From the sequence record MN518894.2: 39,197 nt of DNA; one strand, 5' to 3'. This document shows positions 777-35,729 of this stretch, in pieces (within the stretch, counting starts at the first letter, position 1; each line of letters begins with the position of its first letter). The notes under the pieces were generated by a model. It saw nothing but the letters and a program-made list of their open reading frames with translations, did no database searches and was not told the DNA's origin. Source of the DNA: Escherichia virus LS2. A program made the translations under genes and the position numbers.

Positions 777-1022
777 ATGAAACATCTGAGCACCATTACC
801 AACCATAACGAAGTATTCGTGAACACTAAAGGTTATGCGTGGATTCAGCTTAAAGAGACGACAGGAGCGCGTCACCGTGTGGTAGTGCGCAAGGTCTCAA
901 GCAAGCCGTTCAGCAACTACAGCGTAGATACTGTTCGTATAGACAACGAGACCTACCTGATAGACTCGCAGATAACCGTGAGTCCTACAGCGAGCGCCTC
1001 AGCTCCTTATTTCGCTAACTGA
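777..1022 (+). CDS. Early hypothetical protein (81 aa)
   Basis: ORF with GAGGG Shine-Dalgarno 6 nt upstream, first gene after the host promoter; no homolog recognised. Confidence 0.6.
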   Translation: MKHLSTITNHNEVFVNTKGYAWIQLKETTGARHRVVVRKVSSKPFSNYSVDTVRIDNETYLIDSQITVSPTASASAPYFAN

Positions 1023-2855: not shown

Positions 2856-5537
2856 ATGAGCGTCATCTCTATTGACAAACATGACTTCTCTGATGTGTCG
2901 AACGCCATTGAGCCGTTTAACCTGCTGGCTGACCACTACGGACAAGACCTTGCAGTCAAACAGCTTCAGCTTGAGCATGAGGCATATACAGAAGGCGAGC
3001 GACGTTTCATCAAGAACCTTGAGCGGCAGACTGAGCGCGGGGAACTGGCAGACAATCAGGTCGCCAAGCCTTTGATGCAGACTCTGGTCCCTAAGATTGC
3101 GCAAGCCGTCAGGGAGTGGCACGAAGGCCTAGACGGGAAGCTGTCAACCTCGCGTCCTAGCGTAGCGTTCACCATGTTGAGCACTGAAGAGAAGGCCGTT
3201 AAGGACCGCTCTATGCGCATCTCCTGTGAGTCCGCTGCGGTTATCATACTGAAGGTCATACTCTCCAAGCTGGTCAAGCCTGAAGGGATACCGATTACAC
3301 CGATGGCCTCCGCGATAGGTCGCACACTTGAGGACGAAATCCGCTTCGGTCGCATCCGTGACAAAGAGAAGGAGCACTTCAAGAAGGCGATAGCTGATAA
3401 CCTGAACAAGCGAGCTGGGGCATCCTACAAAAAAGCCTACATGCAAGCGGTCGAGGCGTCCATGCTGGAGCAAGGCCAACTGGAAGATGCATGGGGTACT
3501 TGGAGTCCTACAGAGGCTGTACACGTTGGCATCAAGATGCTCGAGATTGTCATCCAGTCAACACAACTGGTCGAGCTTAAGCGGTACGGTGCTGGTAATG
3601 CAGCGGCTGACGTAGAGATGGTCCACCTGTCAGACTTCTGGGTCAAGAAGATGGCACAACGAGGATTCAGCCTTGCGGGTATCGCTCCAGTCTACCAGCC
3701 TTGCGTCGTTCCACCTAAGCCGTGGACTGGTGTCGTAGGTGGTGGGTACTGGGCCAAAGGTCGCAGACCGTTACCATTGATTCGCTTAGGGTCTAAGTCT
3801 GCGGTAGCACGTTATGAAGACGTATACATGCCTGAAGTCTATGACGCTGTGAACATCATTCAGAATACACCTTGGAAAGTTAACAAGAAGGTATTGGACG
3901 TGGTGAACATGGTCGAGAAGCTGAACAACACGCCTATTAATGACATCCCTCAGATGGAACCGCTGAAGCCTGAGGACTATGCTGGTGAAACCGAGGAGGA
4001 ACTCAAGGCATGGAAGAAGACTGCTGCTGGTATCTATCGCCGCGAGAAGGCCAGACAGTCACGCAGATTGTCCATGAGTTTCATCGTTCACCAGGCCAAC
4101 AAGTTCTCACAGTTTAAGGCCATCTGGTTCCCGTACAACATGGATTGGCGAGGTCGTGTCTACGCTGTCCCGATGTTCAACCCTCAGGGTAACGACATGC
4201 AGAAGGGGCTCCTGACTCTGGCAGTCGGCAAGCCTATCGGGGCGGATGGTTTCAAATGGCTTAAAGTCCACGGTGCAAACTGTGCGGGTGTCGATAAAGT
4301 CACCTTCGATGAGCGCATCAAGTGGGTGGAAGACAACCACGAAAACATCATGGCTGCTGCTAAGGCACCGATGGATAGTATTGAGTGGTGGGGCAAGTTA
4401 GACTCTCCGTTCTGTTTCCTCGCGTTCTGCTTCGAGTATGCTGGCGTAATGCACCACGGCCTGTCTTACTCCTGCTCGCTGCCGATAGCGTTCGATGGGT
4501 CCTGCTCTGGTATTCAGCACTTCAGTGCGATGCTTCGTGACCACATCGGTGGACATGCAGTAAACCTGACGCCATCCGGCATGGTACAAGACATCTACCG
4601 CATTGTGTCTGACCGCATTGAGGAGGAGCTTAAAGTCCTTCTGATTAACGGTACTGACAACGAGATGGTCACTCACGAGGATAAGAAAACTGGTGAGATT
4701 ACCGAACGTATCAAGCTGGGGACACGAGAGCTGGCCCGTCAGTGGCTGACATACGGTATGTCACGCAAGGTCACTAAGCGTTCAGTCATGACTCTGGCAT
4801 ACGGGTCGAAAGAGTACGGATTCGCAGACCAAGTTTACGAGGACATCGTGATGCCAGCGATTGACTCAGGGTCTGGCGCTATGTTCACTGAACCAAGCCA
4901 AGCGTCTCGCTTCATGGCAAAGATGATTTGGGAAGCTGTGAGTGTGACAGTAGTTGCTGCGGTTGACGCGATGAAGTGGCTTCAAGGTGCTGCCAAGCTG
5001 CTGGCTGCTGAGGTGAAGGACAAGAAGACTGGGGAAATCCTGAAGCCTTGCCTTCCGGTACACTGGGTCACACCTGATGGGTTCCCGGTCTGGCAGGAAT
5101 ACCGCAAGAAGGATACCACTCGTCTGAACCTGATGTTCTTAGGGTCCTTCAACCTTCAACCTACGGTCAACAAAGGTACGAAGAAAGAGCTGGACAAGCA
5201 CAAGCAGGAGTCAGGCATTAGCCCCAACTTCGTCCACTCACAAGATGGTAGCCACCTGCGGAAGACTGTAGTCCACACTCACAGCAAGTATGGCGTGATG
5301 TCATTCGCAGTGATTCACGATAGCTTCGGGACCATCCCTGCTGACGCTGAGTATCTGTTCCGTGGTGTCCGTGAGACGATGGTCGAGACATACCGCGATA
5401 ACGATGTGCTGCTTGACTTCTACGAGCAGTTTGAATACCAGCTTCATGAAAGCCAGCGCGACAAGTTGCCTGAGCTTCCGAAGAAAGGTAAACTGAATAT
5501 CGAAGACATCTTGTCTTCAGACTTTGCATTCGCTTAA
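2856..5537 (+). CDS. gp1: Single-subunit DNA-dependent RNA polymerase (T7 gene 1 homolog, 893 aa)
   Basis: Co-linear similarity to T7 RNAP throughout, including C-terminal ...HSQDGSHLRKTVV...IHDSFGT...FAFA. Confidence 0.97.
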   Translation: MSVISIDKHDFSDVSNAIEPFNLLADHYGQDLAVKQLQLEHEAYTEGERRFIKNLERQTERGELADNQVAKPLMQTLVPKIAQAVREWHEGLDGKLSTSRPSVAFTMLSTEEKAVKDRSMRISCESAAVIILKVILSKLVKPEGIPITPMASAIGRTLEDEIRFGRIRDKEKEHFKKAIADNLNKRAGASYKKAYMQAVEASMLEQGQLEDAWGTWSPTEAVHVGIKMLEIVIQSTQLVELKRYGAGNAAADVEMVHLSDFWVKKMAQRGFSLAGIAPVYQPCVVPPKPWTGVVGGGYWAKGRRPLPLIRLGSKSAVARYEDVYMPEVYDAVNIIQNTPWKVNKKVLDVVNMVEKLNNTPINDIPQMEPLKPEDYAGETEEELKAWKKTAAGIYRREKARQSRRLSMSFIVHQANKFSQFKAIWFPYNMDWRGRVYAVPMFNPQGNDMQKGLLTLAVGKPIGADGFKWLKVHGANCAGVDKVTFDERIKWVEDNHENIMAAAKAPMDSIEWWGKLDSPFCFLAFCFEYAGVMHHGLSYSCSLPIAFDGSCSGIQHFSAMLRDHIGGHAVNLTPSGMVQDIYRIVSDRIEEELKVLLINGTDNEMVTHEDKKTGEITERIKLGTRELARQWLTYGMSRKVTKRSVMTLAYGSKEYGFADQVYEDIVMPAIDSGSGAMFTEPSQASRFMAKMIWEAVSVTVVAAVDAMKWLQGAAKLLAAEVKDKKTGEILKPCLPVHWVTPDGFPVWQEYRKKDTTRLNLMFLGSFNLQPTVNKGTKKELDKHKQESGISPNFVHSQDGSHLRKTVVHTHSKYGVMSFAVIHDSFGTIPADAEYLFRGVRETMVETYRDNDVLLDFYEQFEYQLHESQRDKLPELPKKGKLNIEDILSSDFAFA

Positions 5538-5549
5538 CAGGAGAGAGTT

Positions 5550-5765
5550 ATGAAATTTGCACACAAGCATGCTGGAGTTAAGGGCGGGACTCAAATCGTG
5601 ACCGTAACAGAACACAACGGCAATGGTCTGGTGAAGACCACGGTCATTCCTACCGAAATGTCAAAGCAGCTTAACGTCCCATTCAAGACCCTCGTCTATC
5701 TTGTGGAATCCAGCCACGAGAAATACCTGAAAGACGCAGTGACCAAGCTGGAGCAGACCAAATGA
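5550..5765 (+). CDS. Hypothetical protein (71 aa) between RNAP and the gene 1.1 promoter
   Basis: Good Shine-Dalgarno GGAGAG; natural codon usage; a degenerate second copy lies at 5843-6151. Confidence 0.65.
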   Translation: MKFAHKHAGVKGGTQIVTVTEHNGNGLVKTTVIPTEMSKQLNVPFKTLVYLVESSHEKYLKDAVTKLEQTK

Positions 5766-5842: not shown

Positions 5843-6151
5843 GAAATTTGCACACAAGCATGCTGGAGTTAAGGGCGGGACTCAAATGAACCATCCAGTG
5901 ACCGTAACATAATCTTGAGCTGGCTAACCGGGAACACACACGGCAATGGTCCAAGATTTAGAAGGCTCTGGTGAAGACCACGGTCATTCCTACCGAAATT
6001 AAGCGGATGGTCGGCCTGAAGTTCAAGGCTCTGTTCAAGACCCTCGTCTATCTTGTGGAATTCAAGACCGGGCCAGCCACGAGAAATACCAGAAAGACGC
6101 ACTTCACCACGAGTCGAGACAAGCTGGAGCAGACCAAATGACAGACCTACA
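5843..6151 (+). pseudogene. Block-mosaic degenerate copy of 5552-5775 (gene 5550-5765 plus the first codons of the next ORF)
   Basis: Nine blocks of 6-46 nt 100% identical to the upstream gene, separated by eight replaced blocks of 2-34 nt; ATG replaced by CCG; frame broken. Confidence 0.6.
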
Positions 6152-6343
6152 CGGATGGCTCTCAGAAGGACTTTGAGTACCGACTGAGCGACATCGACGG
6201 TCGCATCCAGTATGACTACGAGCAGGTTAAAGTCTATGGACAGGAGGCCGAACGTGAGCGAGCGATTCAGGCATTCACGCAGGTAAGACCGCGCATCATC
6301 TTACCCCTTTGCCTCCCATTGCCGTTAACCGTTAAAATTCCGT

Positions 6344-6395
6344 GTCGACGTACGTACGTACGTACGTACGTACGTACGTTGCATGCATGCATGCA
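6344..6395. repeat. GTCGAC followed by (ACGT)8 (6348-6379) and (TGCA)4 (6380-6395)
   Basis: Perfect tetranucleotide periodicity; alternating purine-pyrimidine, fully self-complementary; contains SalI, BsiWI, SnaBI, SphI and NsiI recognition sequences. Confidence 0.95.
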
Positions 6396-6671: not shown

Positions 6672-6686
6672 GAGTGTAACAAATTC

Positions 6687-6950
6687 ATGAACCATTACGA
6701 GCTTAAAGATTTCCTTTCAAAGCAGCAAAGAGTCTTGGACTTGTGGTTGAGCACGACTGGTATGCTCCAGCGTAGACTTAAGGTAGAGCGAGTGTCCTTC
6801 AGGACAGACTACAGCAAGAACGGCTACGAGCGAGGGACCTGCTACCGAGACTTGAGTTTACTGGACTCACTGGGTCCAACAGAATACGCCGATGCCATCG
6901 GTCCGGCTTACAACGGTCTCGCTTACACAATTTGGAGGATAACACAATGA
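6687..6950 (+). CDS. Hypothetical protein (87 aa) at the gene 1.2 position
   Basis: ORF between gp1.1 and ligase; stop overlaps the ligase ATG; no clear similarity to T7 gp1.2. Confidence 0.6.
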   Translation: MNHYELKDFLSKQQRVLDLWLSTTGMLQRRLKVERVSFRTDYSKNGYERGTCYRDLSLLDSLGPTEYADAIGPAYNGLAYTIWRITQ

Positions 6951-7999
6951 CAACTATCAAAACCAACCCGCATCGCGCTGTAGATTACTCTGAGTCAGGC
7001 GTTAAGAAAGCGCTTGAAGCTGCTGGGTCGCTGGAAGCCGAAGTGAAGTATGACGGTGTGCGGTTGAATATTCCGGTGATGCGCGAAGGTGAGAACTACT
7101 GGTTAAGCCGTGAGTCAAAAACGCTTCCGGCCTTAGACTGGGTCAACAGTGAGTCAGGACATGCATGCCGTGCGGCCGACTGGCGATGGTTCCTGAAGCA
7201 AGCAGGACATGAAGTCGTCGGTCTGCTGATTGACGGAGAGGTGCTGGTCAAGGGTGTAGACTTCAACACATCCTCAGGTCTTATCCGCACCATGTGGCTG
7301 ACCCCAAGCAACTACAAGTGCGCTGAAGGCTATCCAAGACGTGGCAACAAGGTCCCATTCCAGATAGCCCGGTTACTACTAAAAGTGGTCGTCTACGGGG
7401 TCATCGACCTTAACATCATCAACGACCCGAAAGCCGAAGGTCCTATCCATAGCGTCACACGCCTGAAGGCCGAAGCTATCGTCCCTCTCCTCCAGAAATA
7501 CTTCCCGGAAATAGACTGGGTTCTGTCTGAGTCATACATCGTGTTTGAGCTTGAGGAGCTTAACTACTTGTATGAAAAGAAGAGCCGAGAGGGCCATGAG
7601 GGTCTGGTGGTTAAAGACCCACTGGGACGCTGGAAGCGTGGCAAGAAGTCAGGTATGTTCAAGATGAAACCCGAAGAGGGCACGGACGGTACGTTGTACG
7701 GCCTGATATGGGGAACAGAAGGTCTAGCCAACGAAGGTATGGTCATCGGCTTTGACGTTATGCTTGAGAACGGGATGGAAGTGAACGCGTGCGGCCTGAC
7801 CGAAGAACAGAAAGATGAATTTACCGCGAGCGTGCTGAACTGGCGCAAAGGCCTGTGCAGCAGCACCATTTATGGCAACCCGTTTGCGGGCAACCAGGTG
7901 GAAGTGCTGTTTATGGAACGCTTTCCGGATGGCAGCCTGCGCCATCCGAGCTTTAAATGCTGGCGCGGCACCGAAGATAACCCGACCGTGAAAAGCTAG
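6947..7999 (+). CDS. gp1.3: ATP-dependent DNA ligase (T7 gene 1.3 homolog); true start ATG 6947 (MTTIKTNP...), C-terminal 73 codons recoded
   Basis: GGAGGA 7 nt upstream of ATG 6947; IKTNP N-terminus and C-terminal PDGSLRHPSF...RGTEDNP match T7 ligase. Confidence 0.93.
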   Translation: MTTIKTNPHRAVDYSESGVKKALEAAGSLEAEVKYDGVRLNIPVMREGENYWLSRESKTLPALDWVNSESGHACRAADWRWFLKQAGHEVVGLLIDGEVLVKGVDFNTSSGLIRTMWLTPSNYKCAEGYPRRGNKVPFQIARLLLKVVVYGVIDLNIINDPKAEGPIHSVTRLKAEAIVPLLQKYFPEIDWVLSESYIVFELEELNYLYEKKSREGHEGLVVKDPLGRWKRGKKSGMFKMKPEEGTDGTLYGLIWGTEGLANEGMVIGFDVMLENGMEVNACGLTEEQKDEFTASVLNWRKGLCSSTIYGNPFAGNQVEVLFMERFPDGSLRHPSFKCWRGTEDNPTVKS

Positions 8000-8152
8000 C
8001 AGAACCCACGGTCCTATACCAGGGTGTGTGACTCAGGCGGTGAACCCGTAGTCACTGCCAATCTGGAGAGAAATACGTTCAATACCAGAAATCAACTGGT
8101 CGATGGCAATAAAGCGTACGTCAGCCGAGGCGGTAGCCTAAGAGATTCATTA

Positions 8153-8192
8153 TAATGTCAACCCAGTGGTCATTAATGTCAACCCAGTGGTC
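8153..8192 (+). repeat. Tandem 19-bp direct repeat taatgtcaacccagtggtc x2 (8153-8171, 8174-8192)
   Basis: Exact duplicate; second copy forms the 5-prime arm of the terminator hairpin. Confidence 0.9.
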
Positions 8193-8216
8193 TTCGGACT
8201 GCTGGGTTTCTTTACG
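8181..8216 (+). terminator. Early intrinsic terminator candidate (TE-like): 12-bp stem, UUCG tetraloop, U-rich tail
   Basis: aacccagtggtc TTCG gactgctgggtt (10 Watson-Crick plus 2 G-U pairs) followed by tctttacg; same architecture as T7 TE. Confidence 0.5.
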
Positions 8217-8235
8217 TCTGGGCCACCAGCCTGAC

Positions 8236-8258
8236 CCTAAGCTATCACTATAGGACAA
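8236..8258 (+). promoter_or_regulatory. Phage-RNAP promoter (+1 near 8253)
   Basis: ccctaagctatcactata G gacaa. Confidence 0.75.
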
Positions 8259-8536
8259 CCTAACCGACCTAAGGAGGAACCGCATGTTTAAGAACTTAAT
8301 GTTCAATCGCCTTACTACAAGATTCCACCTGTCTCACAACCCGTTCGGCTTGCATTAAGCGCAACAACGAGTAGGCTACTTCGGGAAGGCCGTTAAGCTG
8401 TCACCTACAGTGGCTTCGCTAATTACTCGCAAGTGAAAGCTGAAGGCTCGCGAGAAAGGCCAACTTTACGTACCTGTGGTCTTTACAAAGTGGCCTCGCG
8501 TTCGTCTGTTCGTTGAGGTCGTGAAGGAGATGTTCT

Positions 8537-10544: not shown

Positions 10545-10992
10545 GGTTCAGTTCAACCCACGGTCCCGGACTGACGCTATCTTCGTTCACTGTTCGGCTA
10601 CCAAGCCAGATATGGACATCGGGGTAGAGACCATCCGTATGTGGCACAAGCAGCAAGGCTGGCTGGACGTAGGCTACCACTTTATCATCAAGCGAGATGG
10701 CACTGTGGAAGAGGGTCGCCCGGTCAATGTCGTAGGGTCACACGTTAAGGACTGGAACTCAAAGTCCGTAGGCGTCTGCCTTGTAGGTGGAATTGACGCT
10801 AAGGGCAAGTTTAAAGCTAACTTCACTCCGGCCCAGATGCACTCCCTGCGCAACAAGCTGGCTGACCTGAAGGCCCTGTATCCTCAGGCAGAAATAAAAG
10901 CACACCATGACGTAGCACCTAAGGCGTGTCCAAGTTTCGACTTGCAACGCTGGCTGACTACCAACGAACTGGTCACTTCCGACCGAAGCTAA
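10534..10992 (+). CDS. gp3.5: N-acetylmuramoyl-L-alanine amidase / lysozyme (T7 gp3.5 homolog)
   Basis: AIFVHCSATKP...WHKQQGWLDVGYHFIIKRDGTVEEGR...KACPSFDL matches T7 lysozyme. Confidence 0.95.
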   Translation: MVSKVQFNPRSRTDAIFVHCSATKPDMDIGVETIRMWHKQQGWLDVGYHFIIKRDGTVEEGRPVNVVGSHVKDWNSKSVGVCLVGGIDAKGKFKANFTPAQMHSLRNKLADLKALYPQAEIKAHHDVAPKACPSFDLQRWLTTNELVTSDRS

Positions 10993-11128
10993 TCACCGGA
11001 AACATGGGACCATGAGTCCTATGGAAAGTCGTCATTTAGAATTGCGGAGTGACGAATGGCTAAATCGTATTAAGTATCAACAGCCGAGGGTCCACGTTCA
11101 GGTATGATCCACGACAACAAGGCTGAAG

Positions 11129-15841: not shown

Positions 15842-16023
15842 AGTCGAGAAGGATCACCGCAAGTACGCTGAGTTGGTCTGTGGAGTGATACCTACGGCTC
15901 AGAGGTAAATCACTGGGACGTATATCGCCAAGTTCAGAAGGAGACCGAAATGTCTTCCAACTTCTGGAGCCAGACATTTATTCGCTGGAAAGGAGCTGCC
16001 GAGGAAGTCGAGCCGAAAGTCTG

Positions 16024-32876: not shown

Positions 32877-35576
32877 ATGTCCACGATTACACAATTCCCT
32901 TCAGGAAACACTCGTTACAGGATTGAGTTCGACTACCTAGCCAGAACGTTTGTTGTTGTTACGCTGGTGAATAGCTCTAACCCTGCCCTGAACCGTGTAC
33001 TGGAAGTTGGTCGAGATTACCGATTCCTTAATCCAACGATGATTGAGATGTTGGTTGACCAATCAGGTTTCGACATCGTTCGTATTCACCGTCAGACTGG
33101 AACTGACTTAGTGGTAGACTTCAGGAATGGCTCAGTGTTGACAGCTAGTGACCTGACCAATGCAGAGCTTCAGGCTATCCATATTGCAGAAGAAGGTCGA
33201 GACCAAACTGTTGACTTAGCGAAGGAATATGCCGATGCTGCTGGTAACTCTGCTGGCAACGCTAAGGATAGCGAGGACGAAGCACGACGAATCGCTGAGA
33301 GTATCAAGGCATCTGGTCTGCGAGGCTATATTACCCGTCGCTCCTTCGAGAAAGGCTTCAACGTTACAATATGGAACGAGGTACTGCTATGGGAAGAGGA
33401 TGGTGATTATTACCGATGGGATGGTGGACTGCCAAAAAACGTACCTGTTGGTTCAACTCCTGAAACGTCTGGCGGCGTTGGTTTGGGTGCGTGGGTTAGT
33501 GTTGGTGATGCGTCATTGCGCGCCCGGCCTGCCGAAAAACGTGCCGGTGGGCAGCACCCCGGAAACCAGCGGCGGCGTTGGCGCGATAACGGCGATCCGC
33601 GCGGCTGGGGCGCGATTGGCGATGGCGTGACCGATGATACCCTGGCGCTGCAGGCGTGCTTTGATACCGCGACCTGCGATATTGATCTGGGCGGCAAAAC
33701 CTATCTGGTGCGCAAAAACCCGACCCTGGCGGCGACCTATCCGAACGAACCGGATTTTAGCGATGGCAGCTATAACTATAGCCCGTGCCTGGCGCTGGTG
33801 GGCAAAAAAAACATTAAAATTCATAACGGCGCGCTGATTGTGGAAACCCATGGCCTGGATGCGATTAGCCTGATTGCGTGCGAACATGTGACCGTGGATC
33901 TGACCATTAAAGGCCCGGGCATTTTTCCGGCGATTGATACCCCGACCGGCTATGCGGAAAAAGGCGAAGCGAACTTTGGCTATGATAGCAGCCTGCTGCT
34001 GGCGCCGAACAACGCGCTGGATACCAGCGCGTATACCGGCGGCGCGTATGCGGGCGTGGCGGGCCAGTTTCCGAAATATAACGCGGATGGCAGCCAGGCG
34101 AGCGGCTGGCAGAGCACCTGGGGCACCTTTCTGGGCGGCTATATTGGCAGCTGGGCGTGCGGCGTGAAAGTGCAGCGCGCGTGCCGCGGCATTCTGATTA
34201 ACGATTGCGATATTAGCGGCTTTAACTTTGGCGCGGTGGGCATTGGCATTCGCAACACCGCGGCGGCGTATGGCGCGAGCGATTATACCACCGATGCGGA
34301 TATTCCGGATGGCGTGATGGTGATTAACACCCGCATTCGCAAATGCTATAGCGCGGGCATTTATGTGCTGAGCGGCTATCGCCTGAACTATATGGCGAAC
34401 AACATTGAAGATATTGGCCATCCGAACGGCAACGATGCGCTGAACGCGAGCTATGATCCGGGCTATGGCATTACCCATGGCCGCAACCGCCGCATTCGCA
34501 ACGTGACCATTACCGAAAACATGATTCGCAACTGCCGCCGCAAATGCATTGATTTTCATGGCGGCGGCCAGGCGATTATTGCGAAAAACCATTGCCTGGA
34601 ACATGGCGTGGTGGGCATTTATGCGAAATGCGGCCCGGGCTGGAGCCCGAACTATGAACCGTATAACCTGATTATTGCGGATAACTATGTGCGCAGCCGC
34701 GATGTGCCGGCGAGCGAAACCACCGGCCCGCTGATTGGCGCGAAATATACCCGCAGCATTGATGTGGGCGGCGGCGGCGAAGCGACCCAGGCGACCTATC
34801 CGGATCCGTTTGTGAAAATTCATAACAACTATTGCGAACTGCGCGCGTATGATGGCGTGGCGATTAGCACCGGCGCGGGCGATGATAACTATAACGTGTT
34901 TATGGATATTGATGTGAGCCATAACACCGTGGTGCTGAAATGCAACACCCCGAACAACTTTGCGGAAGGCATTGGCATTAACGCGGGCGCGGCGAGCAAC
35001 AAAGTGTATCGCGGCCAGCGCGTGAAACTGATTGGCAACAGCATTAAACAGCTGAACACCCTGAACCTGACCTATCGCAGCGCGGGCTATAAAATTCAGG
35101 GCATTCCGAAAAGCCTGATTATGCATGGCAACACCCTGGATCTGAACGTGAGCACCCAGAGCTGCAAACTGTGCGATTTTGTGATTGATAGCCGCATTAA
35201 CTATAGCTTTGAAGGCAACCAGGTGCTGAGCTTTAGCGCGCGCGATAGCGCGACCCTGCAGGAAGTGTGGCTGTATGATAACATGAAAATTACCCGCCCG
35301 GCGGCGGCGGCGGCGGCGACCATTAGCGGCAACCTGTTTCGCGGCATTTGGCAGGTGTGCATTGCGGGCACCGGCGATGCGTTTGGCGCGAAACAGACCC
35401 AGTTTGCGAGCACCGGCAGCGGCGGCACCGGCTTTGATGTGGTGCGCAGCGCGACCACCGGCTTTATTGCGACCTTTGGCATTGGCGCGAGCGGCCTGAT
35501 TGTGCCGGCGGTGACCCAGGAAAGCCAGGTGCAGATTAACCTGAAACTGGTGAGCAGCCTGGATAGCGTGGCGTAA
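32877..35576 (+). CDS. gp17: Tailspike / tail fiber (gp17 position): native T7-like N-terminal anchor (to about 33528) fused to a recoded pectate-lyase-like beta-helix (depolymerase-type) domain
   Basis: N-terminus resembles the T7 gp17 tail-binding domain (FDYLARTFVVVTL...); body contains WGAIGDGVTDDTLALQACF; single uninterrupted 899-codon ORF. Confidence 0.9.
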   Translation: MSTITQFPSGNTRYRIEFDYLARTFVVVTLVNSSNPALNRVLEVGRDYRFLNPTMIEMLVDQSGFDIVRIHRQTGTDLVVDFRNGSVLTASDLTNAELQAIHIAEEGRDQTVDLAKEYADAAGNSAGNAKDSEDEARRIAESIKASGLRGYITRRSFEKGFNVTIWNEVLLWEEDGDYYRWDGGLPKNVPVGSTPETSGGVGLGAWVSVGDASLRARPAEKRAGGQHPGNQRRRWRDNGDPRGWGAIGDGVTDDTLALQACFDTATCDIDLGGKTYLVRKNPTLAATYPNEPDFSDGSYNYSPCLALVGKKNIKIHNGALIVETHGLDAISLIACEHVTVDLTIKGPGIFPAIDTPTGYAEKGEANFGYDSSLLLAPNNALDTSAYTGGAYAGVAGQFPKYNADGSQASGWQSTWGTFLGGYIGSWACGVKVQRACRGILINDCDISGFNFGAVGIGIRNTAAAYGASDYTTDADIPDGVMVINTRIRKCYSAGIYVLSGYRLNYMANNIEDIGHPNGNDALNASYDPGYGITHGRNRRIRNVTITENMIRNCRRKCIDFHGGGQAIIAKNHCLEHGVVGIYAKCGPGWSPNYEPYNLIIADNYVRSRDVPASETTGPLIGAKYTRSIDVGGGGEATQATYPDPFVKIHNNYCELRAYDGVAISTGAGDDNYNVFMDIDVSHNTVVLKCNTPNNFAEGIGINAGAASNKVYRGQRVKLIGNSIKQLNTLNLTYRSAGYKIQGIPKSLIMHGNTLDLNVSTQSCKLCDFVIDSRINYSFEGNQVLSFSARDSATLQEVWLYDNMKITRPAAAAAATISGNLFRGIWQVCIAGTGDAFGAKQTQFASTGSGGTGFDVVRSATTGFIATFGIGASGLIVPAVTQESQVQINLKLVSSLDSVA

Positions 35577-35729
35577 GAATGCCTGTGGCTGGAAGCGGCG
35601 TTTCAGCGCCGCCGCTGCGAACGCATTGAAAGCCGCCTGACCGAACTGGAACTGATTATTAAAAAAGCGAAAGAAATTGAATCATAACAACTTTGGGTCA
35701 CGGACGACCCGCTTTAAACTGGAGGTTTT

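What the first reader, a model, noticed from the sequence alone, without database searches (positions are those of the whole stretch)
7778..7999. Last 73 codons of DNA ligase are recoded in the same one-codon-per-residue style
Codons 7778-7996 show zero synonymous variation, while the preceding ligase codons are mixed. The encoded sequence is still a plausible ligase C-terminus (…FPDGSLRHPSF..RGTEDNP.., as in T7 ligase) and the junction is in frame. This is a second, independent recoded block in an essential gene.
Basis: seen in the sequence. Interest (0 to 1): 0.5.

Follow-up and report, generated by a model that had tools for sequence, protein, structure and literature searches.

The report
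Computer back-translated patch in phage ligase
The last 71 codons of this T7-like phage's DNA ligase gene are letter for letter what a simple "protein to DNA" program produces from a related phage's ligase protein, so this is a man-made patch and not a product of evolution.

Summary
From 7784 to 7996 every amino acid uses one codon only, whereas the 277 ligase codons upstream are mixed. The chance of this under the phage's own codon usage is about 1e-38. A scan that assumes no codon table finds only two such runs in the window; the background maximum is 26 codons.

The 213 bases equal, base for base, a reverse translation of residues 280-350 of Escherichia phage Peacock ligase, using the commonest E. 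coli codon for each residue. Two more patches pass the same test: 777-812, and the tail spike at 33579-35576 (1998/1998 bases).

The window is otherwise 97-99.7% identical, in its aligned stretches, to GenBank phages ECG4 and LS3. The ligase patch starts exactly where those two records carry a 52-base inversion. All three share a typed-looking (ACGT)8(TGCA)n filler found in no other phage record. Their mutual differences are noise-like, about 1 synonymous to 2 non-synonymous.

The tail-spike patch has an out-of-frame pasted fragment and 35 recoded codons after the stop codon.

Verdict: an in-silico repair or fill-in. The encoded protein is an ordinary T7-type ligase. Low interest, except as a data-quality flag.

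The parts
6947..7999 (+). DNA ligase ORF (350 aa), T7 gp1.3 type
   Evidence: Pfam PF01068 (E=1.1e-18) and PF17879 (E=1.3e-20). PDB 1A0I T7 ligase, E=1.8e-87. PHROG 114.
7784..7996 (+). Reverse-translated block of 71 codons. It is an exact back-translation of Peacock ligase residues 280-350 with the E. coli commonest-codon table.
   Evidence: 213/213 bases reproduced by the deterministic table. 40 synonymous and 0 non-synonymous codon differences from Peacock. The first base differing from ECG4 is 7784.
7997..7999 (+). Ligase stop codon TAG (TGA in ECG4, LS3 and Peacock). Together with the preceding AGC and the following C it forms GCTAGC (7994-7999), the only NheI site in the window.
8000..8172 (+). 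Rest of the same divergent patch. It is a remnant of a PH1061-type HNH endonuclease gene collapsed by five internal deletions, with no start codon. It replaces the 59-aa gene that overlaps the ligase stop in ECG4 and Peacock. The whole patch 7784-8172 is 389 nt, against 388 nt in the relatives.
8153..8192 (+). 19-nt perfect direct repeat (TAATGTCAACCCAGTGGTC twice) at the right-hand junction, where identity to ECG4 resumes
777..812 (+). Third patch in the same style: the first 12 codons of ORF 777-1022 (MKHLSTITNHNE), an exact back-translation of the start of Peacock_003
   Evidence: ECG4 and LS3 have an indel-garbled start here.
33525..33578 (+). 54-nt fragment cut out of a back-translation of GGLPKNVPVGSTPETSGGV, the gene's own residues about 33 aa upstream. 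It was pasted one base out of frame, so the ORF reads RPAEKRAGGQHPGNQRRR across it.
33579..35576 (+). Reverse-translated tail-spike block: Peacock tail spike residues 235-899 plus a TAA stop
   Evidence: 1998/1998 bases reproduced. tblastn 665/665 aa identical to Peacock.
35577..35681 (+). 35 codons in the same one-codon style after the stop codon, with no start codon (ECLWLEAAFQRRRCERIESRLTELELIIKKAKEIE). They resemble the C-terminal helix of an endosialidase. They lie where ECG4 and LS3 have a related stretch followed by CTGACTGACTGA(CGTA)n filler.
6303..6395 (+). 93-nt insertion relative to Peacock that contains GTCGAC, (ACGT)8 and TGCATGCATGCATGCA, a typed-looking filler. It is shared only with ECG4 and LS3.

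Best explanation
The block is a man-made reverse translation. Someone, or some program, took the amino-acid sequence of the ligase C-terminus of the reference phage Peacock (residues 280-350). Each residue was converted to the single commonest E. coli K-12 codon, and the resulting 213 bases were pasted in frame into an ECG4/LS3-type Kayfunavirus genome sequence.

The paste begins exactly where the sibling records ECG4 and LS3 are scrambled by a 52-base inversion. The same procedure produced the 12-codon patch at 777-812 and the 2-kb tail-spike patch.

The most likely purpose was to fill or 'repair' stretches that were missing or broken in the underlying assembly, or to perturb the sequence deliberately. 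In other words, the edit was made in the sequence file, not in the phage.

What is shown: the exact table identity, the Peacock source, the coincidence with lesions in the sibling records, and the shared filler. What is inferred: that the patch was never physical DNA, and why it was made.

As written, the gene would still encode a normal T7-type ATP-dependent ligase. The recoding has no mechanism of its own.
For: (1) The block is 213/213 bases identical to a deterministic back-translation of Peacock residues 280-350. The tail spike (1998/1998) and 777-812 (36/36) pass the same test.

(2) There is zero synonymous variation, with P about 1e-38. The codons are not the phage's own preferred ones for 15 of 18 degenerate amino acids.

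(3) The window's aligned stretches are 97-99.7% identical to ECG4 and LS3. Divergence is confined to about 15 local, mostly length-preserving patches.

(4) The ligase patch starts at the left breakpoint of a 52-nt inversion present in ECG4 and LS3. The other two patches also sit where ECG4 and LS3 are garbled: an indel at 777, and a tail-spike C-terminal part almost without family matches plus (CGTA)n filler.

(5) The typed-looking filler at 6303-6395 is shared by the three sequences. It is absent from the other phage records of the 50,697-record collection and from IMG/VR.

(6) The tail-spike patch is sloppy in ways no builder of real DNA would choose. A 54-nt fragment is cut off-codon and pasted out of frame, and 35 'coding-style' codons follow the stop codon.

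(7) Codon differences among window, ECG4 and LS3 run about 1 synonymous to 2 non-synonymous (44:93, 43:97, 34:66). Window against Peacock gives 1400:410. The siblings therefore differ by unselected noise or edits, not by evolution.

(8) The block's DNA is absent from IMG/VR, JGI metagenomes and GTDB genomes. The window's exact ligase, tail-spike and RNA polymerase proteins are not on record among 153 billion gene positions.
Against: Nothing in the sequence proves that the DNA was never synthesised. All ORFs stay open, including the tail spike, whose two frame offsets compensate each other. The only NheI site in the genome lies exactly at the 3' end of the block, as a designed cassette boundary might. 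The ligase stop is TAG rather than the TAA that the same table gave the tail spike, so the right-hand end was handled differently. I could not see raw reads, record history or submitter comments.
Confidence: 0.85

Rival explanations
1. This is a physically real engineered phage. An ECG4-type genome was rebuilt with synthetic DNA fragments, designed by naive back-translation of Peacock proteins, to swap the receptor-binding tail spike and to restore the ligase C-terminus.
For: Swapping a tail-spike receptor-binding domain is a standard aim of host-range engineering (own knowledge), and the swap point lies after the conserved N-terminal adaptor domains (Pfam PF03906/PF18668). All ORFs remain open. 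A unique NheI site sits at the ligase block's end.
Against: There is no design rationale for recoding 54 ligase codons that already encoded the same protein in ECG4. The same applies to recoding 12 codons of a small early gene and 35 codons after a stop codon. The 54-nt out-of-frame paste gives a junk 18-aa linker. The adjacent HNH remnant and the length-matched patches look like fill-ins. The (ACGT)n filler is shared with records described as sewage isolates. MluI at the left end is not unique.
Confidence: 0.11
2. The sequence is the output of a generative or perturbation pipeline. An ECG4/LS3-type genome was altered in silico with random point changes, segments borrowed from relatives and back-translated protein segments, for example to create a sequence that no database holds. 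This is a sub-case of the in-silico explanation, and it differs from it only in who made the edit and why.
For: The window has 283 private single-base or small-cluster differences from its siblings, with a random-like synonymous to non-synonymous ratio. There are length-preserving patches, one of which copies a neighbouring gene. Other patches match natural alleles at only 85-91%. The window's exact proteins are nowhere on record.
Against: ECG4 and LS3, which are public records, differ from each other in the same noise-like way and carry their own filler. So the oddities need not have been added to the window later. Sequence alone cannot separate this from submitter-side patching.
Confidence: 0.3
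3. The cause is natural: strong translational selection, gene conversion or horizontal transfer gave the ligase 3' end an E. coli-like codon usage.
For: None beyond the fact that the host is E. coli.
Against: Natural bias is graded and never removes all synonyms. Here 71 of 71 codons follow one fixed table (P about 1e-38), and the boundary is abrupt at a single codon. The amino-acid sequence is unchanged from Peacock while 40 of 71 codons differ. The table is the genome-wide E. coli K-12 most-frequent set (own knowledge), not the phage's set.
Confidence: 0.005

Closest known systems
Naive reverse translation with an E. coli most-frequent-codon table (the default behaviour of tools such as Sequence Manipulation Suite 'Reverse Translate' or EMBOSS backtranseq with an E. 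coli table; own knowledge)
   Same: One fixed codon per residue (GCG, CGC, AAC, GAT, TGC, CAG, GAA, GGC, CAT, ATT, CTG, AAA, TTT, CCG, AGC, ACC, TAT, GTG), with TAA as the stop in the tail-spike block. The blocks are reproduced base for base by such a table.
   Different: The output is embedded in an otherwise natural-looking phage genome and covers only part of a gene. The ligase stop is TAG. One fragment is pasted out of frame.
Bacteriophage T7 DNA ligase, gp1.3 (PDB 1A0I)
   Same: The protein has the same two-domain architecture. It aligns over residues 3-340 with E=1.8e-87 and carries the KYDG adenylation motif and the C-terminal ...PDGSLRHPSF... segment.
   Different: Nothing at the protein level. 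Only the codons of the last 71 residues are unnatural.
Escherichia phage Peacock (MK903279.1): ligase QEG09679.1 and tail spike QEG09711.1
   Same: The amino-acid sequences of the recoded blocks are 71/71 and 665/665 identical to Peacock.
   Different: DNA identity in the blocks is only 77% and 76%. The rest of the window is only about 92% identical to Peacock.
Escherichia viruses ECG4 (MN218775.2) and LS3 (MN518893.2)
   Same: They share the backbone (97-99.7% identity in the aligned stretches) and the filler insertion at 6303-6395.
   Different: In place of the recoded ligase block they carry native codons with a 52-nt inversion. In place of the Peacock-type tail spike they have a 661-aa stretch almost without family matches, followed by (CGTA)n filler.
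Deliberately recoded or refactored T7 genomes (T7.1 refactoring; codon-modified T7 capsid gene; own knowledge)
   Same: Man-made synonymous changes in a T7-like genome.
   Different: Those designs recode whole genes or separate overlapping elements for a stated purpose, and they were physically built. Here the patches are partial, one is out of frame, and one extends into non-coding sequence.

Membership tests
T7-type ATP-dependent DNA ligase (gp1.3) | Nucleotidyltransferase domain (Pfam PF01068) with the motif I lysine in KxDG | tested here: met
   PF01068, E=1.1e-18, residues 18-241. The sequence reads ...EVKYDGVR... and aligns to the EIKYDGVR motif of 1A0I.
T7-type ATP-dependent DNA ligase (gp1.3) | C-terminal OB-fold domain (Pfam PF17879) including the conserved ...LRHPSF... 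segment | tested here: met
   PF17879, E=1.3e-20, residues 242-340. The recoded block encodes residues 280-350 of this domain, 71/71 identical to Peacock.
T7-type ATP-dependent DNA ligase (gp1.3) | Ligase activity | not testable with these tools
   Would need expression and a nick-sealing assay.
Reverse-translated (single codon per residue) artificial sequence | Zero synonymous variation over a long run | tested here: met
   71 edited codons (77 counting chance flanks), against a background maximum of 26.
Reverse-translated (single codon per residue) artificial sequence | Exactly reproducible from a database protein with one fixed codon table | tested here: met
   213/213 bases from Peacock residues 280-350.
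Reverse-translated (single codon per residue) artificial sequence | Abrupt boundaries against native codon usage | tested here: met
   The share of table codons in 20-codon windows jumps from 0.2-0.6 to 1.0 at 7787.
Commercial-style codon optimisation of a synthetic gene | Several codons per amino acid, chosen by weighted sampling to avoid repeats and extreme GC | tested here: not met
   Exactly one codon per amino acid.
Natural codon bias of a highly expressed or host-adapted gene | Graded bias towards the genome's own preferred codons, with synonyms retained | tested here: not met
   For 15 of 18 degenerate amino acids the block uses a codon that is not the phage's favourite; no synonyms are retained.
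Designed cloning cassette in an engineered phage | Unique restriction sites or designed overlaps at both boundaries | tested here: inconclusive
   NheI is unique and lies at the 3' end. The MluI site at the 5' end arises automatically from N-A-C and occurs 3 times in the window.
Designed cloning cassette in an engineered phage | Physical existence of the junctions in sequencing reads or amplicons | not testable with these tools
   No reads are available. The exact proteins and the block DNA are absent from all collections searched.

The most novel reading that the evidence does not exclude
The window is the true sequence of a viable, physically built chimeric Kayfunavirus. It would be an ECG4-type backbone carrying naive back-translated Peacock fragments. 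It would tolerate a junk 18-residue linker in its tail spike and a ligase whose 3' end, and the loss of the downstream overlapping gene, were redesigned.
Probability: 0.1. Interest if true: 0.25.

Novelty: not a real feature. Interest (0 to 1): 0.08.

Why it matters
The block has no biological meaning. It says nothing about ligase evolution, codon selection or phage gene regulation.

Its value is as a provenance and data-quality flag:
- This genome sequence and its two public siblings, ECG4 and LS3, contain stretches that were apparently written by a person or a program rather than read from DNA.
- Such stretches can mislead comparative genomics, host-range prediction from the tail spike, codon-usage studies and the training of sequence models.
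- A table-independent scan for runs with zero synonymous variation detects them cleanly.

Tried and rejected
- **Divergent patches as inversions of ECG4 or Peacock sequence.** Only the 52-nt ligase segment in ECG4/LS3 is an inversion; the window's patches are not.
- **The window as an earlier version of the ECG4 record.** Rejected. Two proteins that kept their old accession in version 2 (ECG4_17 and ECG4_33) differ in the window.
- **A restriction-site cassette design.** NheI is unique but MluI is not, so the result is inconclusive.
- **Looking for the source record.** I searched for exact DNA of the block, of the HNH remnant and of the filler in IMG/VR, for the block in JGI metagenomes and GTDB genomes, and for the tail-spike patch (33400-35720) in PLSDB. 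I also looked up the exact ligase, tail-spike and RNA polymerase proteins. All were negative. Only the SSB protein is on record, in ECG4 and LS3.
- **ECG4's odd tail-spike stretch as a reversed or antisense copy of a known tail spike.** It is not; there were only short frame-hopping matches to an endosialidase C-terminus.
- **Literature.** I found no paper on ECG4 or LS3. The search for a citable statement on T7 ligase dispensability was unproductive, so that point rests on my own knowledge.
- **Promoter and terminator scan of 7600-8400.** Nothing relevant was created by the recoding.

Full report
**Context.** The window is a complete T7-like genome of the genus Kayfunavirus. It has a single-subunit RNA polymerase at 2856-5537, a ligase at 6947-7999 and a tail spike at 32877-35576. 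Megablast places it at 92-95% identity to Peacock, Emlis and others. A direct comparison shows that its aligned stretches are 97-99.7% identical to two GenBank records from one source (sewage, India): ECG4 (MN218775.2) and LS3 (MN518893.2). Most 250-nt bins are 100% identical to ECG4. Divergence is concentrated in about 15 local patches.

**Checking the observation.** Codons 7778-7996 use exactly one codon per amino acid, while the 277 upstream ligase codons use 2-6 synonyms for nearly every degenerate amino acid. Only 34.5% of codons in the phage's long genes belong to the 20-codon set used. A run of 74 therefore has probability 6e-35, or 1e-38 conditional on the amino-acid sequence. For 15 of 18 degenerate amino acids the block's codon is not the phage's own commonest one, for example GAT against GAC, TTT against TTC, AAA against AAG and AGC against TCT. 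A scan that assumes no codon table finds only two long zero-variation runs in all six frames: 7775-8005 (77 codons) and 33579-35681 (701 codons). The background maximum is 26.

**Boundary correction.** The first base that differs from ECG4 is 7784 (codon 280). ATG GAA GTG at 7775-7783 is native sequence. The block is 71 codons, 7784-7996. The stop codon is TAG instead of the relatives' TGA.

**What the block is.** The 20 codons are, to my knowledge, the genome-wide most frequent E. coli K-12 codon for each amino acid. That is the output of simple reverse-translation tools. I applied that table to the Peacock ligase protein, and residues 280-350 reproduce window 7784-7996 at 213 of 213 bases. 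Against Peacock's natural DNA the block has 40 synonymous and 0 non-synonymous codon differences, at 77% nucleotide identity. The same test reproduces two other stretches:
- Window 33579-35576 from Peacock tail-spike residues 235-899 plus TAA (1998 of 1998 bases).
- Window 777-812 from the first 12 residues of Peacock_003 (36 of 36 bases).

So there are at least three patches made with one table from proteins of one reference phage. They are not independent events.

**The protein is ordinary.** The ORF hits PF01068 and PF17879, PHROG 114 and T7 ligase 1A0I at E=1.8e-87. It has the KYDG adenylation motif and the ...PDGSLRHPSF... C-terminal segment. The block encodes the second half of the OB-fold domain. 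Nothing about the protein is unusual.

**Why the block sits where it does.** ECG4 and LS3 encode DRKPSTHGSAPHSGRTH (LS3: ARKPS...) at residues 280-296, where Peacock and the window have NACGLTEEQKDEFTASV. This is because about 52 bases in those two records are the reverse complement of the Peacock-type sequence. The alignment score is 30 to the reverse complement against -5 to the forward strand. The window's patch starts exactly at the left breakpoint of that inversion. It then also recodes the 54 codons that were already identical in protein.

The divergent stretch continues to 8172. After TAG comes a remnant of an HNH endonuclease gene of the PH1061 type. It is collapsed by five internal deletions and lacks a start codon. 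It replaces the 59-aa gene that overlaps the ligase stop (ATGA) in ECG4 and Peacock. The patch ends with a perfect 19-nt direct repeat at the point where identity to ECG4 resumes. The whole patch is 389 nt, against 388 nt in ECG4 and Peacock.

The other two recoded patches also sit where ECG4 and LS3 are abnormal:
- An indel-garbled gene start at about 777.
- A tail-spike C-terminal 661 aa that matches tail-protein families over only 28 residues. This stretch is followed by CTGACTGACTGA(CGTA)n.

**Signs that the editing was done in a file, not in DNA.**

(i) The window, ECG4 and LS3 share a 93-nt insertion relative to Peacock. It ends in GTCGAC, (ACGT)8 and TGCATGCATGCATGCA. No other record among 50,697 phage genomes has it, and IMG/VR has no exact match.

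(ii) At the left end of the tail-spike patch, 54 bases are an off-codon excerpt of a back-translation of GGLPKNVPVGSTPETSGGV. That peptide is the gene's own sequence about 33 residues upstream. The excerpt is pasted one base out of frame, so the ORF reads RPAEKRAGGQHPGNQRRR there.

(iii) After the tail-spike TAA come 35 more codons in the same one-codon style, with no start codon. The first part is a conservative variant of the endosialidase-like tail that ECG4 has at this place. The second part (LELIIKKAKEIE) sits exactly where ECG4 and LS3 have the (CGTA)n filler.

(iv) Codon differences among the three siblings are 44:93, 43:97 and 34:66 (synonymous to non-synonymous). The window against Peacock gives 1400:410. 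The siblings therefore differ by unselected noise or edits, not by evolution.

(v) The block's DNA is absent from IMG/VR, JGI metagenomes and GTDB genomes. The window's exact ligase, tail-spike and RNA polymerase proteins are not on record among 153 billion gene positions. Its SSB protein occurs only in ECG4 and LS3.

**Best explanation and rivals.** Most likely (0.85) the block is an in-silico reverse-translation patch used to fill or 'repair' a broken stretch of an ECG4-type assembly with the protein of the closest well-annotated relative. Sequence alone cannot show who did it: a submitter, a repair script or a deliberate perturbation pipeline.

A physically built chimeric phage is the main rival (about 0.1). 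It is helped by the open ORFs and by the only NheI site of the genome lying at the block's end. It is hurt by the lack of any design logic, the out-of-frame paste, the recoded non-coding tail and the filler shared with 'sewage isolates'.

A natural origin is excluded for practical purposes. The change is all-or-none at a single codon boundary and matches a fixed table not used by the phage.

**By-products.** The table contains no TTA, CTA or TCA. The antisense frame in register with the recoded codons therefore has no stop codons. This explains the antisense ORFs 7724-7945 (73 aa) and 33513-35126 (537 aa) listed mechanically. The recoding also removed the ribosome-binding site and the ATGA start overlap of the downstream small gene seen in Peacock. 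That gene is absent from the window in any case.

**Verdict.** The 'essential gene' remark is overstated: T7 gene 1.3 is dispensable on ligase-proficient hosts (own knowledge). The blocks are not independent. The feature is an artefact of human or software editing, of no biological novelty. It is worth a note only as a data-integrity flag for this sequence and for ECG4 and LS3.

Noticed in passing
window 6303-6395: A 93-nt insertion relative to Peacock that ends in GTCGAC, (ACGT)8 and TGCATGCATGCATGCA, which looks like typed filler. It is 100% shared with ECG4 and LS3 and found in no other phage record and not in IMG/VR.
   Followed up: yes
window 33525-35681: The tail-spike C-terminal part is an exact back-translation of Peacock tail spike residues 235-899. 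It is preceded by a 54-nt out-of-frame back-translated copy of the gene's own upstream peptide. It is followed, after the stop codon, by 35 recoded-style codons resembling an endosialidase C-terminal helix.
   Followed up: yes
window 777-812: The first 12 codons of ORF 777-1022 are also an exact back-translation (MKHLSTITNHNE). ECG4 and LS3 have an indel-garbled start at this place.
   Followed up: yes
window 8000-8192: A remnant of a PH1061-type HNH homing endonuclease gene, collapsed by five deletions and lacking a start codon, replaces the 59-aa gene found after the ligase in ECG4 and Peacock. It ends with a perfect 19-nt direct repeat (8153-8171 and 8174-8192).
   Followed up: partly
window 5843-6181: Two length-preserving patches (156 and 143 nt) overwrite native sequence with partial copies of the upstream gene 5550-5765, reusing peptides such as KFAHKHAGVKGGTQ and TLVYLVE...KLEQTK.
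   Followed up: partly
window 10987-11122: 136 nt with no detectable similarity to ECG4 or Peacock replace 243 nt, so the small gene ECG4_18 is missing. I did not search for this stretch elsewhere on its own.
   Followed up: no
L006 (ECG4) 7802-7855 and L008 (LS3) 7800-7853: Both public sibling records carry a 52-nt inversion inside the ligase gene. It keeps the frame open but garbles 17 residues of the OB-fold domain.
   Followed up: yes
L006 (ECG4) 33682-35690: ECG4's annotated tail-spike ORF continues for 661 aa with almost no family matches and only short frame-hopping similarity to an endosialidase. It has no stop codon in one frame and ends in CTGACTGACTGA(CGTA)n. LS3 is 95% identical to ECG4 over this stretch.
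   Followed up: partly
window 7078-7096, 7140-7150, 7217-7220, 7547-7590 (ligase N-terminal part): The window, ECG4 and LS3 each have different bases at the same small clusters. Genome-wide, their codon differences are about 1 synonymous to 2 non-synonymous, unlike the 3.4:1 seen against Peacock.
   Followed up: partly
window 7724-7945 (-) and 33513-35126 (-): Long antisense ORFs lie in register with the recoded codons. They are a by-product of a codon table that lacks TTA, CTA and TCA, not genes.
   Followed up: yes
window 6679-6938 and 15843-15971: These patches have no similarity to ECG4 or Peacock but nearly the same length. They match alternative alleles in other Kayfunaviruses at only 85-91% identity (ST1749, Midid, Milel, YZ1).
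   Followed up: partly
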